Shown in pieces: positions 48,994 through 59,021 of a DNA stretch of 64,000 bases. Positions within the stretch are counted from its first letter, which is position 1. Every line of letters starts with the position of its first letter. Below the pieces are notes generated by a model, which did no database searches, was not told the DNA's origin, and was given only the letters and a program-made list of their open reading frames with translations. The stretch lies in the sequence record NC_023693.1; one strand, 5' to 3'. A program made the position numbers and the translations under genes. The stretch is from Escherichia phage phi92.

Positions 48994-50121
48994 ATGAAAT
49001 ACACGATTTATGGTGATATTGTAAGTGTAAATAAAGATATGGGCGTGGAATCTAACTATCTTCCACCTGGATTCTATACTGTTAGTCGTGATCCCCTTGG
49101 CAATTATTTTTTAAGCCGTGGTAATCTAACAGGTGTACCGGATGTTCTGTATGGTGAAACAGAAAAACGAGCAAATCACGTTATTCGTACATTCCATCGC
49201 CGGAGTGCACAAGGTAAAAATACAGGCTTGCTTCTGACAGGAACTAAGGGCAGTGGTAAAACTATGTTAGCCAAGCTCATTAGTCGTGACCTTGTAGAAG
49301 AAGGTATTCCAACTATTATGGTTACTCAAGCCTACAGTGATGCTAATTTCATTGAACTTATTAGCAAGATCACCGACAAAGCAGTAATTATTTTTGACGA
49401 ATTTGATAAAGTATACGAGAAGAAACAAGATCAAGAAGCACTTCTCACTTTGTTAGACGGTACTGGTAGTGGTAATAAACTGTTTATTTTGACTAAAAAC
49501 AGTGGTTTTATCTCGGAATTCTTTTTAAATCGTCCTAGTCGTGTGTTTTATAATTTTAATTATGATAAAATCTCACTAGAAACCATGATTGACTATTTAG
49601 ATAAAAACCTGGATAACAAAGCACACTTTGATAATTTCCAAAGACTTTGGGATGTAAGTTTAGAGTTGTCCTTTGATGTGATCCAAGGTATAGTAGAAGA
49701 ACTTAATTTCTACCCTGATTTATCCTTTAAAGAATGCATCTCTATGATGGGTGTTTCTTTAGGTGGTGGTAATAAATGGGATATCAGCAGCGTTGTTATT
49801 AATGGAAAACTTCAGAAAGTTAGCTGGGTATCTAGTTGGCATAACTTTACACCTGCAATCTTTTTAGGTGGCTCGTGCACACTAGACGTGTACTTGTCAT
49901 CTCCAAGTGATGCAGATTCTAAAGAAGCCCTTGCTAATAGCTCTTACGTGGTTTTTGATGATGAAGGCGATGCTCGAATTCCATTGAACGCAACAAAAAT
50001 GAAAGCAGATCTTATTACAGGCGGTAAAATCGTTGTGTTTAGTGATGATCCAGAAGATTCTTTCCGTATTGTTCTGGAACCAACTATCACCAATGGTGCA
50101 ACTTTGGCAAGCGTGTTTTAA
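48994..50121 (+). CDS. P-loop ATPase (paralog of 32537-33697)
   Basis: Walker A GTKGSGKT, Walker B IIFDEFDKV; collinear similarity to the - strand ATPase over most of its length. Confidence 0.5.
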   Translation: MKYTIYGDIVSVNKDMGVESNYLPPGFYTVSRDPLGNYFLSRGNLTGVPDVLYGETEKRANHVIRTFHRRSAQGKNTGLLLTGTKGSGKTMLAKLISRDLVEEGIPTIMVTQAYSDANFIELISKITDKAVIIFDEFDKVYEKKQDQEALLTLLDGTGSGNKLFILTKNSGFISEFFLNRPSRVFYNFNYDKISLETMIDYLDKNLDNKAHFDNFQRLWDVSLELSFDVIQGIVEELNFYPDLSFKECISMMGVSLGGGNKWDISSVVINGKLQKVSWVSSWHNFTPAIFLGGSCTLDVYLSSPSDADSKEALANSSYVVFDDEGDARIPLNATKMKADLITGGKIVVFSDDPEDSFRIVLEPTITNGATLASVF

Positions 50122-50195: not shown

Positions 50196-51386
50196 ATGGC
50201 AGCACCAAAATCATGGGAACAATATAAAGAAGAGTGTCAACCAATAGCAGAGAGTAAGCAAATCCAAATCTTAGGATGGACGGGAGAATGGAAAGGGAAC
50301 AAGACTAAACTTAAGCTATCTTGCTCTGATCATGGAGAGTGGAACACCACGAACATTAATGATTTTAAGAATGGACGTGGTTGTCCGGCATGTACAAGTA
50401 ATAAGTCGTTAACATGGGAAACAGAATTGCCGATCTTAGAAGAGATAGCACAGAAGAAGGGGTATCAAGTGTTAGGGTACGTTGGAGAATGGAAAGGGGT
50501 TAATACAAAACTTGATTTGTTGTGTCATTGTGGGAATAGATGGCAAAGTACAATTATTAAGACATTTAAACGTGTAAATGGTTGTCCACAGTGTAGAATA
50601 GAGAAGGTAAAGCAAGCCAGTACGAAGTCAGATGATGAAAGGATCGCCTCTTTCCTTGCTAAGCGGGATTATCCAGAAGGAACTATCTTTAAACGATCTG
50701 ATCGGACTACCTTGCAAGGTCGTGCAGTTTATTGGTTTGTGTATTGCCCTATCTGTGCACAAGATGAAATAACGAAAGCTGGGTTATGTAGTGGATGGTT
50801 TGAAAGTACAGCAGGGGATTTGCAAAAAGGGACTGCCGCTTGTCGTTGTAGTAAGTCCCCTAAATACACAGACGATCAGAATACATTCCGTGCAATGAAG
50901 GTATGCGAGGATAACGGTTATCAGTTTGTTGGTTGGGTTGATAAGGTAGGAACACAGTCTAAGTTTAAATATCTGTGTCCAGAACACGGGGTACAAATTA
51001 TAACATTGGGTAGTATGGTTAGGGGTCATGGATGCCCTGAATGTGCTGGTAATAGTCAACAGCAATTATATATTAACATTGTTAAAGATAATGATATTAC
51101 CGTTGCTCTTAAGTTTGGCATAGCTAAAGATAGCGACAGGCGATTAAACAGTCAAAATAGCCGTAATCTGTTTTTTATGGAGCGTATTTGTTTATATGAT
51201 TTTAGTACAGTGAAACAATGTAAGGCTACTGAAAGAGCTATAAAGAAAAAATTAAAAACTGGTATTTTAACGGCAAGAGAGTTGAAAGACGGTTATACAG
51301 AAACAGTAAGTGTTTCTGATTTGGAAAATCTTCAAAAAATTATTACACAATATGGTGGCAAATTGGTATATAGTAAGGAGGTGTAA
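50196..51386 (+). CDS. zinc-ribbon repeat protein with C-terminal T5orf172 (GIY-YIG-like) domain
   Basis: Repeated units GW.GEWKG..TKL.L.C..HG.W...GCP.C; C-terminal LYINIVK...ALKFGIAKDSDRRLNSQN. Confidence 0.5.
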   Translation: MAAPKSWEQYKEECQPIAESKQIQILGWTGEWKGNKTKLKLSCSDHGEWNTTNINDFKNGRGCPACTSNKSLTWETELPILEEIAQKKGYQVLGYVGEWKGVNTKLDLLCHCGNRWQSTIIKTFKRVNGCPQCRIEKVKQASTKSDDERIASFLAKRDYPEGTIFKRSDRTTLQGRAVYWFVYCPICAQDEITKAGLCSGWFESTAGDLQKGTAACRCSKSPKYTDDQNTFRAMKVCEDNGYQFVGWVDKVGTQSKFKYLCPEHGVQIITLGSMVRGHGCPECAGNSQQQLYINIVKDNDITVALKFGIAKDSDRRLNSQNSRNLFFMERICLYDFSTVKQCKATERAIKKKLKTGILTARELKDGYTETVSVSDLENLQKIITQYGGKLVYSKEV

Positions 51387-51938
51387 ATGCGGATTACTGA
51401 TAAGTATGTGTTCTTCTTCTCGGCAAAAGATGAATTTAGCAACTGGTATCTATCATCTTTTATTGAACCTTTAGCACCCAAGTATAATAACTCTATTACA
51501 AGTTCTGTTGAATTTACTTGTGTGGAACAATATATGATGTGGAGAAAAGCATGTTTGTTTTATGATTACAATATTGCATCTTCTATTTTAATCGGAGATC
51601 TCAGATATACAGGAGAAAAAGAACAAGCATATTATAAGCGACTAGGTAGATTAGTTAAAGATTATGATGAAGACACCTGGACTTCTTTACGGGAGAAGAT
51701 TGTCAAACGTGGTTTGTATCTTAAATACACACAAAATGAAGATCTCAAAAATAAACTTATCGCTTACGCAGATAAGGAGTTCGTAGAGGCAAGCCCCTAT
51801 GATTCTATTTATGGTATCAAAATGGGGATGTGGGATCGGGACGTGGAAAATAAGGATTGTTGGAAAGGACAAAATCTTTTAGGAAAATGGCATACAGACC
51901 TTGCTGTTTATCTAAAAACACAATCTGATATTTCCTGA
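51387..51938 (+). CDS. NADAR (YbiA-like) domain protein
   Basis: FFFSAKDEFSNWYLSSF, EQYMMWRKA and EASPYDSIYGIKMG blocks match NADAR signature positions; RBS aaggagg. Confidence 0.5.
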   Translation: MRITDKYVFFFSAKDEFSNWYLSSFIEPLAPKYNNSITSSVEFTCVEQYMMWRKACLFYDYNIASSILIGDLRYTGEKEQAYYKRLGRLVKDYDEDTWTSLREKIVKRGLYLKYTQNEDLKNKLIAYADKEFVEASPYDSIYGIKMGMWDRDVENKDCWKGQNLLGKWHTDLAVYLKTQSDIS

Positions 51939-53020: not shown

Positions 53021-53131
53021 GGTATCGCCCTTTCTTTGATGTGCGCCCTGGTTGGCGCGGTAGAAAGATAATAGCCCTTTCCTTTATAGATAGCAAGCAA
53101 AAAAGAAATGAAAAAAGATTAAAAAAAGGGG

Positions 53132-53160
53132 TTGACGTTCCTCACCTGGTAGCGTATTAT
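53132..53160 (+). promoter_or_regulatory. sigma70-like promoter
   Basis: TTGACG, 17-bp spacer, TATTAT. Confidence 0.4.
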
Positions 53161-53287
53161 TCATCTTGTCGAGGGGGGCGAGGCACAACGACAATAAACA
53201 AAAGGAGGGCGCAATGCAGGACGGGCAAAGGTGAGGATCTCCACAATCCACCGTCACAATAACATTACTTATAAAAGGTTGATAACG

Positions 53288-53392
53288 ATGATCAAGAAAG
53301 AAAACAGCTTGACGGTTGGAACGATTAACGCTATTTTGTTAGCCGTTCCAGTGTGGATCACTGTAGCAATTGTTGTTTCAATCATTCTATAA
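53288..53392 (+). CDS. small membrane peptide (34 aa)
   Basis: MIKKENSLTVGTINAILLAVPVWITVAIVVSIIL; below track size cut-off. Confidence 0.35.
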   Translation: MIKKENSLTVGTINAILLAVPVWITVAIVVSIIL

Positions 53393-53402
53393 GGCGTACA
53401 CT

Positions 53403-53684
53403 ATGAGCAAGGTAATTAATCATAAAGAGTTAAGCCCTACCCTTTCAATGAGTGAATGTACCGATGGTTTTTGGCTGTATGATGATACGCGCGGCATGAA
53501 TTTAGCCATGCGTGAAAAAACAGAAGAGGCGGCGTATATTAAAGCCCTGGAATACTACCAACGACGACTACAGGAAGTAGAAAGTAATTATAAAAGCCTG
53601 AAATCAAAGGTTGATCATTTTGTCGGTCAAGTAGTGGAAGAGGAAGAAGATCACTATTGCGAACGGTGCGGATCATATAGCTGA
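53403..53684 (+). CDS. hypothetical early protein
   Basis: Start set to ATG (MSKVINHK); track ORF starts upstream in the same frame. Confidence 0.4.
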   Translation: MSKVINHKELSPTLSMSECTDGFWLYDDTRGMNLAMREKTEEAAYIKALEYYQRRLQEVESNYKSLKSKVDHFVGQVVEEEEDHYCERCGSYS

Positions 53685-53693
53685 AAAAGATTG

Positions 53694-53750
53694 TTGACAA
53701 CGTTTGAAAAAGTAGTAATATGTATCACATAGGGCGGCAATAGTGCCGCT
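53694..53750 (+). promoter_or_regulatory. early promoter + conserved leader hairpin (cassette 1)
   Basis: TTGACA, 16 bp, TAATAT, then GGCGGCA-ATAG-TGCCGCT hairpin. Confidence 0.55.
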
Positions 53751-53773
53751 CATAACAGAAGAGAGAAATAATC

Positions 53774-54046
53774 ATGGCATCATATAGCGCATCAATGATC
53801 GTAATGGGTATCACTGGTAAACCTATGTGCGGTGGCGGATCTTTCGCTAATATTAATATTGATGGGCGTTTATCCCTGGATGCAGCGATCACCGTGGCAC
53901 GGGAAACATTTAAAAAAGAATGTAATTTCAATAAGCAAGATTATTTAGGTTTCGCTATTGAAAAAACCGCGCGCTTTGTGGATTATAAAAGCCCGAAAAT
54001 GATCGACACTACACTAAAAGCGCAAGATGTAGCGTTTTTGCTTTAA
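53774..54046 (+). CDS. hypothetical early protein
   Basis: 90 aa ORF downstream of cassette 1. Confidence 0.45.
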   Translation: MASYSASMIVMGITGKPMCGGGSFANINIDGRLSLDAAITVARETFKKECNFNKQDYLGFAIEKTARFVDYKSPKMIDTTLKAQDVAFLL

Positions 54047-54049
54047 GGT

Positions 54050-54109
54050 TTGACACTGAAAAATAATTGGGTAATATATACCACATAAGGCGGGAAATGG
54101 TTTCCCGCC
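54050..54109 (+). promoter_or_regulatory. early promoter + leader hairpin (cassette 2)
   Basis: TTGACA, 16 bp, TAATAT, then GGCGGGAAA-TGG-TTTCCCGCC. Confidence 0.55.
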
Positions 54110-54134
54110 AGGCCATCAAAGAAAGGGTAACACA

Positions 54135-54497
54135 ATGAGCAAGCAAATCAATACTATCATGTTAAACCTGGTATCTTTCCGCGACGACGTGAAAAATCTT
54201 TCGCGTGAAGCAGTGGATGCACGGATCGAAAGCTATCGCACGCAGATCGCAACATTGCCGCTAAAATGTGATCAACATGCCGCTAATATGATGCTTAATG
54301 CTATGCTTAAAAAGATGATTCAGTGTGATCTTACCCTGGCTTATGAATATGCTGGCGATCTCTTTGTAACGTATAATAAGCCCGTTCCAGGTATGAGCAC
54401 CACGGAAGAATTGCATGCCTTAAATCTGCGACAAGATGCATGGGATAACATGCGCCGTGTTATGGTATGGGTAGAAAGCGGTAAAATTTACGAATAA
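54135..54497 (+). CDS. hypothetical early protein
   Basis: 120 aa ORF, RBS aagaaaggg. Confidence 0.45.
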   Translation: MSKQINTIMLNLVSFRDDVKNLSREAVDARIESYRTQIATLPLKCDQHAANMMLNAMLKKMIQCDLTLAYEYAGDLFVTYNKPVPGMSTTEELHALNLRQDAWDNMRRVMVWVESGKIYE

Positions 54498-54503
54498 AAA
54501 CGG

Positions 54504-54557
54504 TTGACATTGCACTAAAACCTGATAAGCTATCTTAAAGCGGGAATTGTTCCCGCT
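54504..54557 (+). promoter_or_regulatory. early promoter + leader hairpin (cassette 3)
   Basis: TTGACA, 16 bp, TAAGCT, then AGCGGGAA-TTG-TTCCCGCT. Confidence 0.5.
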
Positions 54558-54575
54558 TACATAGGATAAAACTTT

Positions 54576-54722
54576 ATGAAACAATATGTAATGAGTATTC
54601 ACACCAAAAACGGCGCTACTGTTACGACTCCGGCACGGTTTGCACTTGTAAACCGTTGCAAGAGACTAAAACGAGAGTTAAAAAATAACCGTGCAACGGG
54701 CTTTAAACGCTGGGGAGGATAA
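54576..54722 (+). CDS. small basic protein (48 aa)
   Basis: MKQYVMSIHTKNGATVTTPARFALVNRCKRLKRELKNNRATGFKRWGG; its end provides RBS ggagga for the next gene. Confidence 0.4.
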   Translation: MKQYVMSIHTKNGATVTTPARFALVNRCKRLKRELKNNRATGFKRWGG

Positions 54723-54724
54723 TC

Positions 54725-54985
54725 TTGTTTTTTCTAAAAGTTTTTGATAATGTGATCGCTTTTGAACATGCTACAACGTTCAACCTGGCGAGATACGCTA
54801 TCAGGTTTAAAGATAATGTTTATCCCCGTGCTGGCGGCGGTTACACTATTTTTAATCATCGTAATGCGCAACTAACAGATATAACGAATCCAGATCCTGG
54901 AGTGTATCGCATAGGCTGGCTACCGTCAAAAGACGCTGCAAGCATGTTTAAGGTGTGTAAACTACTAACAGAAGAGGCGAACTAG
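54725..54985 (+). CDS. hypothetical early protein (TTG start)
   Basis: 86 aa; TTG start 5 nt after RBS GGAGGA; translationally coupled to the preceding small ORF. Confidence 0.4.
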   Translation: MFFLKVFDNVIAFEHATTFNLARYAIRFKDNVYPRAGGGYTIFNHRNAQLTDITNPDPGVYRIGWLPSKDAASMFKVCKLLTEEAN

Positions 54986-54986
54986 C

Positions 54987-55541
54987 ATGGGGCGTGAATA
55001 TGTGATCCAGTCCTGGGTAAAGCATGATGCTAATGATCCGCGCATAATACCAGACGACATGATCGATCACATGGTAGGGTATAGCGGGGAGCAGATAGGA
55101 AATCGAGCGGCAAAGAGCAACGGCAACACCAGGACGCGATCCGTTCGCCCTGGATGGCTGGCGAATGGTAACGCTGACATTGCAAGCGCCGCAGATCCAA
55201 GCGATGATGCTAAAAATAATCCCTTATACAGCATTGATCCGGCTTTTAAGGTGTTAGAAGAGTATCCCGCTAAATTAGCCGCACTAGATAAGGCATACGA
55301 AGAAAAGCGCATGGCATGGACTGTATACAACACCGCTAAAATGGTGCTAGATGCAAAATTGATTAAAGCCCAGGAGAAGATCAATAAACTTGTTACCATA
55401 GCGCAAGAGGAAGACCAGGACGACCAGGAGGAAGAGGAAGAAATCATGCCTAACCTGGAAGAGGAAGAGATCCAGCCATACATGCCGACGGAAGAGGAAA
55501 AAAGACAAGCCTTAAAAAATTACGAAAATTGTATTGTGTAA
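54987..55541 (+). CDS. hypothetical protein with strongly acidic C-terminus
   Basis: 184 aa ending QEEDQDDQEEEEEIMPNLEEEEIQPYMPTEEE. Confidence 0.45.
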   Translation: MGREYVIQSWVKHDANDPRIIPDDMIDHMVGYSGEQIGNRAAKSNGNTRTRSVRPGWLANGNADIASAADPSDDAKNNPLYSIDPAFKVLEEYPAKLAALDKAYEEKRMAWTVYNTAKMVLDAKLIKAQEKINKLVTIAQEEDQDDQEEEEEIMPNLEEEEIQPYMPTEEEKRQALKNYENCIV

Positions 55542-55544
55542 GGC

Positions 55545-55600
55545 TTGACATATGCAAACAAGCCCCGTAATATATACCACATAGAGCGGGGCAACGCCTC
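55545..55600 (+). promoter_or_regulatory. early promoter + weaker leader hairpin (cassette 4)
   Basis: TTGACA, 17 bp, TAATAT, then GGGGC-AAC-GCCTC. Confidence 0.45.
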
Positions 55601-55621
55601 AAAGGTGAAATAAAAAATCAC

Positions 55622-55649
55622 TTGACACCTGAAATCAGTAAGCTATAAT
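55622..55649 (+). promoter_or_regulatory. consensus sigma70 promoter (no hairpin)
   Basis: TTGACA, 16-bp spacer, TATAAT (perfect consensus), tandem to cassette 4. Confidence 0.55.
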
Positions 55650-55686
55650 GCTTATATAAATTAAAGCGTTACTAAGGAATAAAATC

Positions 55687-56052
55687 ATGGCTAAAAATAT
55701 CAATGTTTCTGCTTATGCTACCCTGGCTAACACTGCTAAAATTGAACTATCCAGCATTGAAGCGGTACATATTAGCGCCCGTCGCTGGTTTCAAAAGTCT
55801 TATGGTAATACTTATTTCTCTTTGATGGTTGACGTTGAGATCGGCGGTAAACTGATTGAAGTCGTTAACGTTCCGTTTCAATATGGTTATGGTGATCATT
55901 TTGATACCGTCGCCCTGGAAGAGTTTAGCAAGGTTATCAACCTGGAAGGTAAAGACTTTTCAAATTATGCTTACCTTTCCCGTTTTTGCCGTGACAATGG
56001 GATCGCTGTATACAGTCATGCAAGCGATGTTAAACGTAAAAAAGATTTATAA
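55687..56052 (+). CDS. hypothetical early protein
   Basis: 121 aa ORF, RBS aaggaa. Confidence 0.45.
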   Translation: MAKNINVSAYATLANTAKIELSSIEAVHISARRWFQKSYGNTYFSLMVDVEIGGKLIEVVNVPFQYGYGDHFDTVALEEFSKVINLEGKDFSNYAYLSRFCRDNGIAVYSHASDVKRKKDL

Positions 56053-56058
56053 AAAGCA

Positions 56059-56116
56059 TTGACAGCACGAATAAAAAGCATATAATACTTATATCGAGAG
56101 CGGGAATAGTTCCCGC
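56059..56116 (+). promoter_or_regulatory. early promoter + leader hairpin (cassette 5)
   Basis: TTGACA, 16 bp, TATAAT, then GCGGGAA-TAG-TTCCCGC. Confidence 0.55.
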
Positions 56117-56140
56117 CTCACTGAAAAAGAGATTAACATC

Positions 56141-56380
56141 ATGGCTAAATCTAAAATGTACAACGGTCACAAAAATAAAACTCATTGGAATGTAAGCCTT
56201 TGGATCAACAACGATGAAGGTTTTTATAATCTTGCGCGTGAATTTATCGCAGCTAACACCAATAAGAATGACGCAGCGCGGGATATGATGTTATTTCTTG
56301 AAAGTATGGATCAAGATAAAACGCCAGACGGTTACAAGTTCAGTAAAACTGCAATCCGTGCCGCTATGGTAGGAATGTAA
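56141..56380 (+). CDS. hypothetical early protein
   Basis: 79 aa ORF. Confidence 0.45.
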   Translation: MAKSKMYNGHKNKTHWNVSLWINNDEGFYNLAREFIAANTNKNDAARDMMLFLESMDQDKTPDGYKFSKTAIRAAMVGM

Positions 56381-56389
56381 TAAAATAGC

Positions 56390-56449
56390 TTGACACTGTT
56401 TTTTATTCTGGTATAGTTTATCACATAGGGCGGGAAATGGTTTCCCGCC
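56390..56449 (+). promoter_or_regulatory. early promoter + leader hairpin (cassette 6)
   Basis: TTGACA, 16 bp, TATAGT, then GGCGGGAAA-TGG-TTTCCCGCC. Confidence 0.55.
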
Positions 56450-56471
56450 AAATCAAAGAAAGGTTATAATT

Positions 56472-56699
56472 ATGGCTATCGTTATTGTTCGCGTATCCGG
56501 TACGGTTGGAAGCTCCCAGGTAGTAGCAGTTATCACAGAGAAGAAAGGGGATGATCTTCACTCTTCCTTGAATAGCTGGGCGGTCGCTAATTTTGGTCAG
56601 TGGTCGAGCGTCGAGTATATCGAATCCTACCAGGTGCCGACGATTAGCCTAACCGATCTAAATGTTGATCGCTTGTTGTGCCTGGATGCATTAAACTAA
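56472..56699 (+). CDS. hypothetical early protein
   Basis: 75 aa ORF. Confidence 0.45.
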   Translation: MAIVIVRVSGTVGSSQVVAVITEKKGDDLHSSLNSWAVANFGQWSSVEYIESYQVPTISLTDLNVDRLLCLDALN

Positions 56700-56707
56700 A
56701 AATAATC

Positions 56708-56764
56708 TTGACAAGATAACTAAAATTAGTAAAATGTAATTCATAGGGCGGCAATAGTGCCGCT
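56708..56764 (+). promoter_or_regulatory. early promoter + leader hairpin (cassette 7)
   Basis: TTGACA, 16 bp, TAAAAT, then GGCGGCA-ATAG-TGCCGCT. Confidence 0.55.
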
Positions 56765-56785
56765 CATAGTGAGAGAGATTATCAA

Positions 56786-57001
56786 ATGGCTAATATCCGC
56801 ACACTGTTAAAAAATGCAAAGCAGGTTTTATTTTCTGATCACGATCATTTCAATAAAGACATTACAGGCGTGAAAAATCTTAAAGATGTAAAGGATGTAA
56901 TAGGTATTCGCGGATCTTTACGTAAAGGTGACATATACGGTAACAAGGTGCAATATAAACTGTCAAAAGATTATGATTTTACTTTGACATTTATTTCATA
57001 A
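56786..57001 (+). CDS. hypothetical early protein
   Basis: 71 aa ORF. Confidence 0.45.
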   Translation: MANIRTLLKNAKQVLFSDHDHFNKDITGVKNLKDVKDVIGIRGSLRKGDIYGNKVQYKLSKDYDFTLTFIS

Positions 57002-57007
57002 AACCGC

Positions 57008-57068
57008 TTGCAATACTGCAAAAATAAAGTAAACTGTATTCATCAAGGCGGTGGAATAGCCCACCGCC
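57008..57068 (+). promoter_or_regulatory. early promoter + leader hairpin (cassette 8)
   Basis: TTGCAA, 16 bp, TAAACT, then GGCGGTGG-AATAGC-CCACCGCC. Confidence 0.5.
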
Positions 57069-57092
57069 TAACAAAGAGAAGAGGAAAACATC

Positions 57093-57263
57093 ATGATCAC
57101 TTTCGCTACCCGTGAAGCCGCTCGCAACGTTGCACGTAAAGTTAATGCCGCCAACCTGGGCGCTACGCTTAAAGCCCCGGTAAAAGATGAATCAGGTAAA
57201 TGGATCTTTCCTGGTCTGCGTCACGCTGATAAGCTGGGAACATTAACGTTAAAAAACAAATAA
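57093..57263 (+). CDS. small hypothetical protein (56 aa)
   Basis: MITFATREAARNVARKVNAANLGATLKAPVKDESGKWIFPGLRHADKLGTLTLKNK; RBS gaggaa; below track size cut-off. Confidence 0.4.
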   Translation: MITFATREAARNVARKVNAANLGATLKAPVKDESGKWIFPGLRHADKLGTLTLKNK

Positions 57264-57270
57264 TATCCGT

Positions 57271-57329
57271 TTGACAGTAGCATCATTTAGAAGTAAAGTA
57301 ACAACAACGGCGGGGAATGGTTTCCCGCC
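57271..57329 (+). promoter_or_regulatory. early promoter + leader hairpin (cassette 9)
   Basis: TTGACA, 17 bp, TAAAGT, then GGCGGGGAA-TGG-TTTCCCGCC (one G-T position). Confidence 0.55.
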
Positions 57330-57349
57330 AACAATAAAGAGATAAGATT

Positions 57350-57709
57350 ATGAAATCAGTAAAAGCAATTAAAACTTACATTGTGTCGGCTATTTCTTTT
57401 GAAGGTACTACAACAGAAAAAGAAAAGATCACCGAACTGATGCGCCGTTTTAAGTCTGAATACTGGTATCAATCTAATCGTGATCGTTATAATAACAACA
57501 TGGTACAAGCTGTTAAAAGCTGGTTACAAGGTTTACCGTCAGAAATAAATATTGCTTTTAATTATAACGAGATCGATCACTTATTAATCGAATGGAAGTG
57601 TATAAAAGAAACAAGCAAAGAAACAACCGTTACCCGTGAGCGGGAAAATTATTGGTTATATATTGCAAGCATGATCGTAACTTTGGCAAAATATCATAAA
57701 GTAGCGTAA
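57350..57709 (+). CDS. hypothetical early protein
   Basis: 119 aa ORF. Confidence 0.45.
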   Translation: MKSVKAIKTYIVSAISFEGTTTEKEKITELMRRFKSEYWYQSNRDRYNNNMVQAVKSWLQGLPSEINIAFNYNEIDHLLIEWKCIKETSKETTVTRERENYWLYIASMIVTLAKYHKVA

Positions 57710-57723
57710 TCGAGAGGAAAAAC

Positions 57724-57861
57724 ATGAACGCATCACAGCAGATCGAAAAATTCAACCGCAGCAAGGCGCGTAAAGATTGGAACGAAGAGATCACCAAAAA
57801 AGGCGACAAGCGGAACAAAACAAAAAGAGATCGCAGCACAAAAAGATACTGGAACGAATAA
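57724..57861 (+). CDS. small basic protein (45 aa)
   Basis: RBS gagagga; MNASQQIEKFNRSKARKDWNEEITKKGDKRNKTKRDRSTKRYWNE. Confidence 0.35.
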   Translation: MNASQQIEKFNRSKARKDWNEEITKKGDKRNKTKRDRSTKRYWNE

Positions 57862-57867
57862 CAAAAA

Positions 57868-57890
57868 GGGCGCAATAAGCGCCCTTTTAG
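57868..57890 (+). terminator. rho-independent terminator
   Basis: GGGCGC-AATAA-GCGCCC followed by TTTT. Confidence 0.55.
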
Positions 57891-57978
57891 CTTATATAGG
57901 GGCTTGTTACCCATAGGCAATGGTAACGCCAGGGCAAGCCTATAAATCAACGTTAGACGGCTTTACAGGAGCTTTAAA

Positions 57979-58161
57979 ATGAGATTAGAAGAAATAAGCA
58001 AGGCACTAGCCCAGGGGCAAAGGTTATGCGCCAGATATCGTGATCAATATGGCTTCATAACTAGCGGCGTGATCCTGGGGATTGAAGGCAATAAGATTTT
58101 TATTGACACGTTGAAAAACGTTGTATATAGTGACAATATAATCTCAATAAAACATATATGA
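57979..58161 (+). CDS. hypothetical protein
   Basis: 60 aa ORF, RBS aggag. Confidence 0.4.
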   Translation: MRLEEISKALAQGQRLCARYRDQYGFITSGVILGIEGNKIFIDTLKNVVYSDNIISIKHI

Positions 58162-58169
58162 GGCAAGAA

Positions 58170-58571
58170 ATGAAAAAATTATTGATCGCTGGTTTAATCT
58201 CTTTTGGTATGGTTGGAACATCTAGCGCGGCGATATCCTCCACAGTAGCAGAATTAAGCGCCGTTGATGCAATGGAAAACGTCATGCTTATTAATAATGC
58301 GATCCCCGATGAAATCATGGAGGATTCACACATGATCGCTTATGGTGCTGTTACACAACTAACGGCAAAAATAGATAAATCTATTGTTAATGGCTTAAAT
58401 GAAGATGTACCATGTGAAATTATTACCAGTGTGCTGACTACTCAAAATTTTACACCGTGGTTAAAAAGTATTCAAAAAGTACACAGTACAGCCGCAGATC
58501 GTAGCAATGAAAAACTAGTGTCAGCACTTGCAACGTATACCCTAGCAAAATGCACTGAAATAAAAGATTGA
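58170..58571 (+). CDS. secreted/periplasmic protein
   Basis: Start set to MKKLLIAGLISFGMVGTSSAA (signal peptide) with RBS gagg. Confidence 0.45.
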   Translation: MKKLLIAGLISFGMVGTSSAAISSTVAELSAVDAMENVMLINNAIPDEIMEDSHMIAYGAVTQLTAKIDKSIVNGLNEDVPCEIITSVLTTQNFTPWLKSIQKVHSTAADRSNEKLVSALATYTLAKCTEIKD

Positions 58572-58596
58572 CAGCATAGAAAGCACGTTATAAGAT
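58568..58596 (+). promoter_or_regulatory. sigma70-like promoter (no hairpin)
   Basis: TTGACA, 17 bp, TAAGAT. Confidence 0.4.
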
Positions 58597-58618
58597 ACAC
58601 ACAACAAAGGAGAACTAC

Positions 58619-58921
58619 ATGAACGGCATAGCTAAAACGTTTTTTCTTTTTTCTGGTGTAAATGATCCATCAATAAAAGTCGATAGTGTAAAAGAAAACA
58701 ATACTATCACCGCTAAATTGTTTCAAGATGAAACAAATAACGTGCTAATCATTAATCTTAAAGAAATAACGAAAGGTTATTATACTATTGCTTACCATGC
58801 AATCTATCATGCTGGTACTAGTGAGGAAGTGCAAACAAGCAACAACGAAAGCGCGGCGCTACCTGGTGATCTGGTGCTGGGCGTTATCAGTTTAATTGTC
58901 AATGATTTTTTTAAGGAGTAA
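58619..58921 (+). CDS. hypothetical protein
   Basis: 100 aa ORF, RBS aaggag. Confidence 0.45.
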   Translation: MNGIAKTFFLFSGVNDPSIKVDSVKENNTITAKLFQDETNNVLIINLKEITKGYYTIAYHAIYHAGTSEEVQTSNNESAALPGDLVLGVISLIVNDFFKE

Positions 58922-58925
58922 AACC

Positions 58926-59021
58926 ATGCCCTATTTACATTTATTTTTCGGGATCTTATTGTCAGGATCTTTTTTCTTCTGTATACTTGTTTCTATTGTA
59001 AACCACGTTTTAAGACATTAA
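58926..59021 (+). CDS. small membrane peptide (31 aa)
   Basis: MPYLHLFFGILLSGSFFFCILVSIVNHVLRH; RBS aaggag. Confidence 0.35.
   Translation: MPYLHLFFGILLSGSFFFCILVSIVNHVLRH

What the first reader, a model, noticed from the sequence alone, without database searches (positions are those of the whole stretch)
54987..55541. Early protein with poly-acidic tail (possible DNA-mimic or chaperone-like inhibitor)
The C-terminal 45 residues are dominated by Glu and Asp (QEEDQDDQEEEEEIMPNLEEEEIQPYMPTEEE). Highly acidic early proteins in phages often mimic DNA to block restriction enzymes or other DNA-binding host proteins.
Basis: inference. Interest (0 to 1): 0.4.

Follow-up and report, generated by a model that had tools for sequence, protein, structure and literature searches.

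The report
Acidic-linker early phage protein, function unknown
This is a real, conserved but uncharacterised phage gene (the phi92 gp230 family); its acidic stretch is genuine, but it is a variable linker found only in one branch of the family, so nothing here shows the protein is a DNA mimic.

Summary
The ORF at 54987..55541 (+) exists and encodes 184 aa (pI 4.6, net charge -15). The quoted acidic string is residues 140-171. It holds 17 D/E in 31 residues with no K/R/H, reached by 23 of 200,000 same-composition shuffles, and is the strongest acid cluster in the window.

The window is a phi92-like Stephanstirmvirinae phage. The protein is the Phi92_gp230 orthologue (PHROG 16605, always annotated "hypothetical") and lies in an array of small genes with consensus sigma-70 promoters.

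It is not a terminal tail. The acidic stretch joins a confident helical hairpin to a conserved C-terminal helix.

Within the clade the acid run has the lowest sequence identity (26%), though its charge is always negative. A large metagenomic sister branch lacks it and instead ends in a transmembrane or basic amphipathic helix.

The conserved core is a new ~45-65 aa N-terminal module (R..Y..QSW...YSGEQIGNR...NG.A[ND]) plus a SHOCT-like hairpin. No sequence or fold match to Ocr, ArdA or any other characterised protein was found.

Best reading: a modular early host-takeover protein whose specificity lies in the N-terminal module. The acidic linker may act as a polyanionic decoy, as in SPO1 Gp44, but this is untested. 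Classic DNA mimicry is not supported.

The parts
54987..55541 (+). CDS, 184 aa plus stop. Orthologue of Phi92_gp230 / PAULA_0090; PHROG 16605.
   Evidence: ORF list and sequence. PHROG 16605 E 3e-117 over the full length. Annotated 'hypothetical' in phage Paula with a BLAST note to Phi92_gp230. Full-length tblastn matches in 132 phage records.
54987..55181 (+). N-terminal conserved module (residues 1-65): R3, W10, G31-Y-S-G-E-Q-x-G-x-R40, G61-x-A-D64. It is the most conserved part and is predicted non-globular or low-confidence.
   Evidence: 69% mean pairwise identity in the clade. Invariant columns listed. pLDDT 44-66 even with a 50-sequence alignment. No PDB sequence match for the module alone.
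55182..55238 (+). Mildly acidic connector (residues 66-84) with short predicted helices. The equivalent segment is Lys-rich in the distant branch.
   Evidence: Net charge -3 here and +2 to +6 in most distant relatives. Secondary structure.
55239..55406 (+). Helical hairpin (residues 85-140; helices 85-105 and 111-151). Carries a SHOCT-like turn motif A..xG.I....Y..A...LD.K.
   Evidence: pLDDT 95-98. The family profile hits SHOCT/DUF1707/GvpG-repeat proteins through this region. Weak, sub-threshold CdvA coiled-coil matches by sequence and by fold.
55407..55499 (+). Acidic linker (residues 141-171). It has a variable poly-D/E run (141-156, partly an extension of helix 2) and then a semi-conserved motif LEE[DE]xIxPYxPTxEE (157-171).
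   Evidence: 17 of 31 residues are D/E, none K/R/H, shuffle p about 1e-4. Identity is 26% for the run and 40% for the motif, with net charge always negative in the clade. pLDDT 76-83. The acid excess is absent from the distant branch.
55500..55538 (+). C-terminal short helix (residues 172-184, KRQALKNYENCIV), net +2. It takes the place of the TM or amphipathic anchor found in distant relatives.
   Evidence: Helix 169-181 with pLDDT 93-95. Consensus ALKNFxN. C-terminal hydropathy comparison.
54725..54985 (+). Upstream 86-aa gene (TTG start, PHROG 17947). Its stop codon lies 1 nt before the ATG of the target, so the two are probably translationally coupled and may work together.
   Evidence: Sequence reads TAG-C-ATG. 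PHROG 17947 E 1.4e-48. Annotated as a CDS in phage Paula. The adjacent homologue is kept in a divergent clade member, L011, at 37% identity, E 1e-18. No homologue was found in the distant branch.
55545..55649 (+). Two sigma-70 promoter-like sites directly downstream (55545-55573 scoring 10/12; 55622-55649 scoring 12/12). They mark the start of the next early transcription unit.
   Evidence: Promoter scan. A consensus match only, not shown to function.

Best explanation
The gene encodes a cytoplasmic, modular accessory protein made early in infection by phi92-like (Stephanstirmvirinae) phages. It belongs to a wider, uncharacterised, phage-restricted family with three parts.

Part 1 is a strongly conserved N-terminal module of about 45-65 aa that has no known relatives and is predicted not to fold on its own. 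I infer that it docks onto a conserved host (or phage) partner and sets specificity.

Part 2 is a SHOCT-like helical hairpin that forms the structured core.

Part 3 is an exchangeable C-terminal module. In the metagenomic sister branch it is a transmembrane or basic amphipathic helix, which would tether the protein to the inner face of the membrane. In this clade the anchor has been replaced by a Pro- and Glu/Asp-rich linker plus a short helix, giving a soluble protein.

The linker is selected for negative charge, not for sequence. Its most likely role is a flexible polyanionic arm that, once the N-terminal module is docked, occupies or repels a nucleic-acid- or cation-binding surface of the target. 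This is a tethered electrostatic decoy of the SPO1 Gp44 or sigma-70 region 1.1 type.

Shown here: the gene, its composition, the family, the architecture and the conservation pattern. Inferred: early expression, partner binding, and any decoy activity.
For: - The gene is real and conserved: full-length matches in 132 phage records and PHROG 16605 at E 3e-117.
- The context is an early-type array with consensus sigma-70 promoters.
- The conservation gradient runs N-module 69% > hairpin 50% > acid run 26% identity, while the linker's net charge stays between -2 and -11.
- The sister branch is genuinely homologous. The profile search gives E 1e-5 to 1e-8 over profile positions 1-150. The reciprocal tblastn of P0047 recovers Stephanstirmvirinae genes at E about 1e-6. 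Blastp between the window protein and the sister-branch homologues encoded in the IMG/VR loci gives E 5e-8.
- The sister branch has 188 or more clusters in 82-94 kb uncultured phage contigs, again inside arrays of small unannotated genes.
- In that branch the post-hairpin net charge is about 0. 13 of 30 members end in a TM segment and the rest in basic amphipathic helices.
- Klebsiella-phage members of the clade keep a 42-aa hydrophobic C-terminal extension, which links the two architectures.
- AF2 with a 50-sequence alignment gives a hairpin and C-terminal helix at pLDDT above 90, while the N-module stays at 44-66.
- The acid segment matches the composition of the Gp44 ssDNA-mimic region: 55% D/E with no basic residues here, against 57% and none in Gp44.
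Against: - No experiment or expression data exist for any family member; literature searches found nothing.
- No binding partner is identified, and gene neighbourhoods show no partner conserved across both branches.
- The acid segment is only 31 residues, half the length of Gp44's. About a third of it is predicted as a helix extension rather than disordered.
- An acidic, Pro-rich stretch could equally be a passive spacer or solubility element.
- Low pLDDT in the N-module may reflect insertions, shallow alignment or obligate oligomerisation rather than folding on binding.
- The function of SHOCT domains is itself unknown, and the only experiments read here did not support oligomerisation.
Confidence: 0.4

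Rival explanations
1. Classic DNA-mimic anti-restriction protein. The protein would imitate duplex DNA with arrayed carboxylates, like Ocr or ArdA, and block type I R-M, BREX or other DNA-binding defence enzymes.
For: Low pI of 4.57 and net charge of -15. Small size and an early-type location. Counter-defence genes lie nearby: NADAR at 51387..51938 and a Gad1-domain gene near a distant homologue. DNA mimics are a recurrent phage anti-defence strategy (10.1101/2025.06.06.658234).
Against: No match to any Pfam or NCBIfam family, Ocr and ArdA included, at E <= 1. No PDB sequence or fold similarity. Outside residues 141-171 the protein is nearly neutral: N-module 0, hairpin +3. The acid run is the least conserved segment. 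The acid excess is missing from the homologous sister branch, whose members are membrane-anchored. Known duplex mimics display charge on a rigid fold (background knowledge), which the model does not show.
Confidence: 0.1
2. The acidic stretch is a passive flexible spacer or solubility element with no target of its own. On this view it arose by expansion of GAA/GAG codons after the membrane anchor was lost, and all function lies in the N-module, the hairpin and the C-terminal helix.
For: Lowest sequence identity (26%) with indels in the run. It is rich in Pro as well as D/E, as linkers often are. The acid run is absent from the distant branch. Its codons are mixed GAA/GAG/GAC.
Against: Net negative charge is kept in all 28 aligned clade members, from -2 to -11 in the run and -1 to -7 in the following motif. 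A semi-conserved motif, LEE[DE]xIxPYxPTxEE, lies inside it. No basic residue is tolerated across the 31 positions in this phage. The codons are not a simple repeat, so recent slippage is unlikely.
Confidence: 0.3
3. A membrane- or division-site-associated organiser. The family would work like phi29 p1/p16.7 or ZipA/FtsA-type tethers, recruiting a cytoplasmic partner to the membrane. The soluble acidic form in this clade would act as a dominant, untethered variant that sequesters the same partner.
For: C-terminal TM or basic amphipathic helices in the sister branch, and a hydrophobic extension in Klebsiella-phage members. Weak, sub-threshold matches to cell-division proteins: CdvA coiled coil and FtsQ_DivIB_C.
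Against: All of the similarity scores are below significance: E 0.02-0.05, Foldseek E above 1. The window protein has no hydrophobic segment. No partner is known. The phi29 and ZipA analogies come from memory of their architecture only and were not tested.
Confidence: 0.15

Closest known systems
Phi92_gp230 / PHROG 16605 (hypothetical proteins of Justusliebigvirus, Phapecoctavirus and related Klebsiella phages)
   Same: Direct orthologues: 93-99% identity in Justusliebigvirus, about 64% in Phapecoctavirus and 48-57% in Klebsiella phages. Same length, same position and the same upstream partner gene.
   Different: Nothing differs. This is the family the protein belongs to, and it has no assigned function.
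SPO1 Gp44 (early host-takeover protein with a disordered acidic ssDNA-mimic region; PMC8208478)
   Same: Both are modular, early-region proteins. Each has a conserved N-terminal part, a central or late segment of about 55-57% D/E with no basic residues, and a further C-terminal element.
   Different: No detectable homology: tblastn against 50,697 phage records hits only Stephanstirmvirinae-type phages. The acid segment is 31 residues here against 67 in Gp44. The N-terminal part is not a recognisable DNA-binding fold. RNAP binding is untested.
T7 Ocr / plasmid ArdA (folded duplex-DNA mimics)
   Same: Small, acidic, early-expressed proteins of mobile elements. Ocr also ends in an acidic run (from memory).
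   Different: No sequence or fold match. The charge is confined to one linker rather than spread over a rigid dimeric body. The acidity is not conserved across the family.
SHOCT / DUF1707 / GvpG-type short helical hairpin repeats (PF09851, PF08044, PF05120)
   Same: The hairpin turn motif (A..xG.I....Y......L) resembles these repeats. The family profile retrieves proteins made of them, including tape-measure-like proteins.
   Different: The window protein itself does not reach any Pfam threshold. Only 1 of 50 family members hits SHOCT, at E 0.001. The function of SHOCT is itself unknown.
Metagenomic sister branch (P0044-P0196; 160-240 aa proteins of 82-94 kb uncultured phages)
   Same: Same N-module and hairpin, and the same kind of small-gene array context.
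   Different: A Lys-rich instead of acidic pre-hairpin connector, no poly-acidic linker, and a C-terminal TM or basic amphipathic helix. No homologue of the 86-aa upstream partner.

Membership tests
PHROG 16605 (phi92 gp230-like) | Full-length profile match | tested here: met
   E 3e-117, residues 1-184 on profile positions 1-184 of 184. Orthologue annotated with a BLAST note to Phi92_gp230.
Ocr / ArdA-type folded DNA mimics | Sequence or profile similarity to a known DNA-mimic family | tested here: not met
   At E <= 1, Pfam-A returns only a sub-threshold FtsQ_DivIB_C hit (E 0.049) and NCBIfam only a sub-threshold zinc-binding family hit (E 0.049); none is a DNA-mimic family. PDB phmmer/hmmsearch gives nothing significant.
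Ocr / ArdA-type folded DNA mimics | Rigid fold displaying carboxylates along its surface in a DNA-like array | tested here: not met
Ocr / ArdA-type folded DNA mimics | Acidic pattern conserved among homologues | tested here: not met
   The acid run shows 26% identity. Charge is kept only within the clade. In the sister branch the post-hairpin net charge is about 0.
Ocr / ArdA-type folded DNA mimics | Inhibition of type I R-M, BREX or other DNA-binding enzymes | not testable with these tools
   Needs in vivo restriction-alleviation or in vitro binding assays.
Gp44-like disordered acidic nucleic-acid decoy (functional class, not a homology family) | Segment with more than 50% D/E and no basic residues | tested here: met
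   17 of 31 residues (55%) are D/E, with no K/R/H, at residues 141-171. Gp44 56-122 has 57% and none.
Gp44-like disordered acidic nucleic-acid decoy (functional class, not a homology family) | Segment intrinsically disordered | tested here: inconclusive
   With the shallow alignment, residues 146-158 have pLDDT below 50. With the deeper alignment, 141-151 are modelled as a helix extension at pLDDT 83 and 151-160 at pLDDT 76.
Gp44-like disordered acidic nucleic-acid decoy (functional class, not a homology family) | Binds RNA polymerase or another nucleic-acid-binding host protein and inhibits growth | not testable with these tools
   No experimental data found.
SHOCT domain (PF09851) and SHOCT-like (PF08044, PF20612) | Pfam match at the gathering threshold | tested here: not met
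   No hit for the window protein. Among 50 family members, 1 hits SHOCT (E 0.001) and 2 hit DUF1707 (E 0.03).
SHOCT domain (PF09851) and SHOCT-like (PF08044, PF20612) | Profile-level relatedness of the hairpin to SHOCT-type repeats | tested here: inconclusive
   The family profile hits repeat proteins at E 1e-5 to 1e-12 through profile positions 58-125. Pfam assigns those proteins SHOCT, SHOCT_2, DUF1707 and GvpG, overlapping in P0051 and P0060.
Tail-anchored / membrane-tethered form of the family | C-terminal hydrophobic TM or basic amphipathic helix | tested here: not met
   For the window protein, the maximum 15-residue Kyte-Doolittle mean in the last 40 aa is -0.7. TM-bearing relatives score 2.2-3.1.

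The most novel reading that the evidence does not exclude
The conserved N-terminal module (R..Y..QSW...YSGEQIGNR...NG.A[ND]) is a new short docking element. Two very different groups of lytic phages would use it to capture one highly conserved host protein. The C-terminal module would then decide the target's fate: dragged to the membrane in the 82-94 kb uncultured phages, or smothered by a tethered polyanion in phi92-like phages. If so, this would be a new, portable 'grab-and-relocate or grab-and-mask' host-takeover system, and the acidic linker would be a true intramolecular nucleic-acid mimic.
Probability: 0.15. Interest if true: 0.65.

Novelty: new variant of a known kind. Interest (0 to 1): 0.3.

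Why it matters
Genes in phage early regions turn over quickly. A module kept from phi92-like coliphages through to distant uncultured 82-94 kb phages therefore probably targets something important and conserved in the host.

Finding that target would assign a function to a protein present in at least 132 sequenced phages, many of them therapeutic candidates. It could also reveal a new host-takeover or counter-defence handle.

For the scan, the practical lesson is that an acidic run alone is a poor predictor of DNA mimicry. Here the informative signal is the conserved N-terminal module, not the charge.

Tried and rejected
- Pfam, NCBIfam and PHROG scans of the protein, its neighbours and 50 family members gave no functional family, only PHROG 16605 'unknown function'.
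- PDB sequence searches with the single protein, the full-family profile and an N-module-only profile gave nothing significant. The best hit was the CdvA coiled coil at E 0.019.
- A search for domain fusions of the N-module, using a word-index search with the N-module profile, found only short fragments.
- A conserved-neighbour analysis across six IMG/VR loci and the window found no partner shared by both branches. The 86-aa upstream gene is conserved only within the clade.
- No paralogues were found in the window.
A degenerate YSGEQIGNR DNA pattern found one true member, on a 4-kb phage-like contig binned in a MAG. The other seven matches were chance hits: two in Bacillus ORFs that look, from memory, like M20-family peptidases, and five others that the family profile did not support.
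- Literature searches for phi92 gp230, Stephanstirmvirinae transcriptomes, and CRISPRi-ART or Tn-seq phage screens turned up no data on this family. The only 'gp230' hit was the unrelated rV5 helicase.
- I first assumed that SHOCT domains mediate oligomerisation. I dropped this after reading that the original experiments did not support it.
- The antisense ORF 55067..55483 (138 aa, Ser/Leu/Phe-rich) was rejected as a mirror-image artefact of the GAA/GAG-rich sense strand.

Full report
**1. Observation**

The ORF at 54987..55541 on the + strand is real. It has an ATG start and a TAA stop and encodes 184 codons. A GAGG motif lies about 9 nt upstream. The stop codon of the preceding 86-aa gene (54725..54985) ends 1 nt before the ATG, which suggests translational coupling.

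The protein has pI 4.57 and a net charge of -15. Residues 141-171 contain 17 D/E and no K/R/H. Only 23 of 200,000 shuffles of the protein's own residues reach that density, and no other ORF of 60 aa or more in the window exceeds 12. The compositional observation is therefore confirmed and is not a chance effect.

One correction is needed. The stretch is not a terminal tail. The last 13 residues are net +2 and form a confidently predicted helix.

**2. Where it comes from**

A 3-kb stretch around the gene is about 96% identical to phi92-like phages (Serratia phage KKP_3264, Escherichia phages inny and Paula; Stephanstirmvirinae, Justusliebigvirus). The orthologue in phage Paula is annotated 'hypothetical' with a BLAST note to Phi92_gp230.

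The protein is PHROG 16605, 'unknown function', at E 3e-117. It is encoded full-length in 132 of 50,697 phage records, all of them 140-160 kb phages. Identity is 93-99% in Justusliebigvirus, about 64% in Phapecoctavirus and 48-57% in Klebsiella phages. It is never annotated with a function.

The gene lies in a long array of small same-strand genes separated by sigma-70 consensus sites. The scan found 32 such sites against 20.1 +/- 4.3 expected, several with perfect 12/12 matches. This is the basis for calling the gene 'early'. It is an inference; I found no transcript or proteome data.

**3. Anatomy**

I aligned 28 clade members and measured conservation by region.

| Region | Residues | Mean pairwise identity | Net charge in the clade |
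|---|---|---|---|
| N-terminal module | 1-65 | 69% | mean -1.5 (-3 to 0) |
| Connector | 66-84 | 53% | mean -3.1 (-5 to 0) |
| Helical hairpin | 85-140 | 50% | mean +3.0 (0 to +5) |
| Poly-acidic run | 141-156 | 26% | -2 to -11 |
| Motif LEE[DE]xIxPYxPTxEE | 157-171 | 40% | -1 to -7 |
| C-terminal helix | 172-184 | 29% | mean +0.6 (-1 to +3) |

The N-terminal module carries the invariant positions R3, W10, G-Y-S-G-E-Q-x-G-x-R (31-40) and G-x-A-D (61-64).

AF2 with a 50-sequence alignment gives a mean pLDDT of 79:
- Helices 85-105, 111-151 and 169-181 score above 90.
- The acid run is partly an extension of helix 2 (pLDDT 83) followed by a loop (pLDDT 76).
- The N-module stays at 44-66 despite being the most conserved part.

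So the acidic segment is under selection for charge, not sequence. The sequence-specific information lies at the N-terminus.

**4. A wider family**

A profile search of 1.84 billion representative proteins found 55 hits. Among them are 160-240 aa proteins that share the N-module and the hairpin at E 1e-5 to 1e-8. Homology is confirmed by a reciprocal tblastn, in which P0047 recovers the Stephanstirmvirinae genes at E about 1e-6, and by direct blastp between the window protein and the sister-branch homologues encoded in the IMG/VR loci.

This sister branch has at least 188 clusters. It occurs in 82-94 kb uncultured phage contigs, again inside arrays of small unannotated genes. One such locus carries a Gad1-domain gene nearby.

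The minimal N-module is about 45 aa: R-x-Y-[ILV]-x-Q-S-W ... Y-S-G-E-[QM]-I-G-N-R ... S ... N-G-x-A-N.

The sister branch has no poly-acidic linker; its post-hairpin net charge is about 0. Instead, 13 of 30 members end in a transmembrane segment and the others in long basic amphipathic helices. Klebsiella-phage members of the phi92-type clade keep a 42-aa hydrophobic C-terminal extension. The acidic linker plus short helix is therefore a clade-specific replacement of a membrane-targeting module.

**5. Comparison with known families**

No characterised relative was found by any method:
- Pfam and NCBIfam give only sub-threshold noise for the protein or for 50 family members.
- PDB sequence searches with the protein, the family profile and the N-module profile give nothing significant.

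The hairpin is SHOCT-like in a loose sense. The family profile picks up tape-measure-like and repeat proteins through profile positions 58-125, and Pfam assigns those proteins SHOCT, SHOCT_2, DUF1707 and GvpG repeats. The window protein itself reaches no threshold. The function of SHOCT is unknown, and oligomerisation was not supported experimentally (PMC3581485).

Other checks also came back empty:
- The N-module is not found fused to other domains.
- It has no paralogue in the window.
- A motif scan of 185,579 species-representative genomes found it only on one phage-like contig.

**6. Interpretation**

The classic DNA-mimic reading fails every membership test that could be run:
- There is no homology to a known mimic family.
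- The charge is confined to one linker rather than arrayed on a rigid body.
- The acidic feature is the least conserved part and is absent from homologues.

A softer version survives. SPO1 Gp44 is a modular early protein whose disordered segment (57% D/E, no basic residues) is proposed to mimic ssDNA and bind RNA polymerase (PMC8208478). The segment here has the same composition (55% D/E, none basic) but half the length, and there is no homology between the two proteins.

My best explanation (confidence 0.4) is a modular early host-takeover adaptor. The N-module docks onto a conserved partner, the hairpin is the structural core, and the C-terminal module is exchangeable: a membrane tether in the sister branch, and a soluble polyanionic arm in this clade that may act as a tethered electrostatic decoy.

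The rivals are:
- a passive acidic spacer (0.3);
- a membrane- or division-associated organiser family, of which this is an untethered variant (0.15);
- a true Ocr-like DNA mimic (0.1).

**7. Verdict**

The finding is a real but ordinary-looking hypothetical early protein. Its modest interest comes from the unusually wide conservation of a new N-terminal module and from the swap between a membrane anchor and an acidic linker, not from the acidity itself. No function can be assigned without experiments or multimer modelling.

Noticed in passing
window 51387..51938 (+): A 183-aa protein with a NADAR domain (PF08719, E 3.3e-36). From memory, phage NADAR proteins are candidates for reversing DarT-type DNA ADP-ribosylation, so this may be a counter-defence gene 3 kb upstream of the target.
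   Followed up: partly
window 50196..51386 (+); also L005 4957..5988 and L008 5330..6328: A 396-aa protein with four CapR homology domains plus a T5orf172 domain, which looks like a homing endonuclease. Homologues sit next to or near the distant relatives of the target in uncultured phages, so this mobile gene moves around the same early regions.
   Followed up: partly
window 48994..50121 (+): A 375-aa AAA-family ATPase (PF00004, E 1.5e-9; weak STAND-NTPase hits). It is annotated 'putative ATPase or Zn metalloprotease' in phage Paula (Phi92_gp221).
   Followed up: no
window 53100..59000 (+): Almost every small gene is preceded by a near-perfect sigma-70 promoter (TTGACA-N16/17-TATAAT; 12/12 matches at 55622 and 56059). 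Short GC-rich hairpins often sit just after the promoter, for example 54540-54558 and 55563-55595. Phage Paula's annotators call some of these minus-strand terminators.
   Followed up: partly
window 56141..56380 (+); L007 5930..6166: A DUF7249 protein (PF23907, E 3e-14). It is 51% identical to a gene in one of the uncultured phages that also carries the distant relative of the target, showing exchange of early-region genes between very different phages.
   Followed up: partly
window 55542..55686, compared with L001 5689..5868: Phage Paula and other relatives carry an extra 60-aa ORF (PAULA_0089, V18_00162-like) between the gp230 and gp231 orthologues. It is missing from this window, which is a small indel polymorphism of the early array.
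   Followed up: no
L008 1441..2487 (-): A gene with a Gad1 domain (anti-Gabija, PF25705) lies about 8 kb from the distant relative of the target in an 88-kb uncultured phage. A YonV_C-domain protein in the same locus is 41-44% identical to proteins of 88-102 kb Acinetobacter phages, hinting at the host range of that phage group.
   Followed up: partly
L014 4293..4318 and L018 6141..6166 (Bacillus genomes): The nonapeptide YSGEQIGNR also occurs in two Bacillus chromosomal ORFs (context W..PYSGEQIGNRIYGRG..DMKG). From memory the context looks like an M20-family peptidase; this was not checked against any family library. The family profile does not support homology (E 0.01 in a tiny database).
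   Followed up: yes
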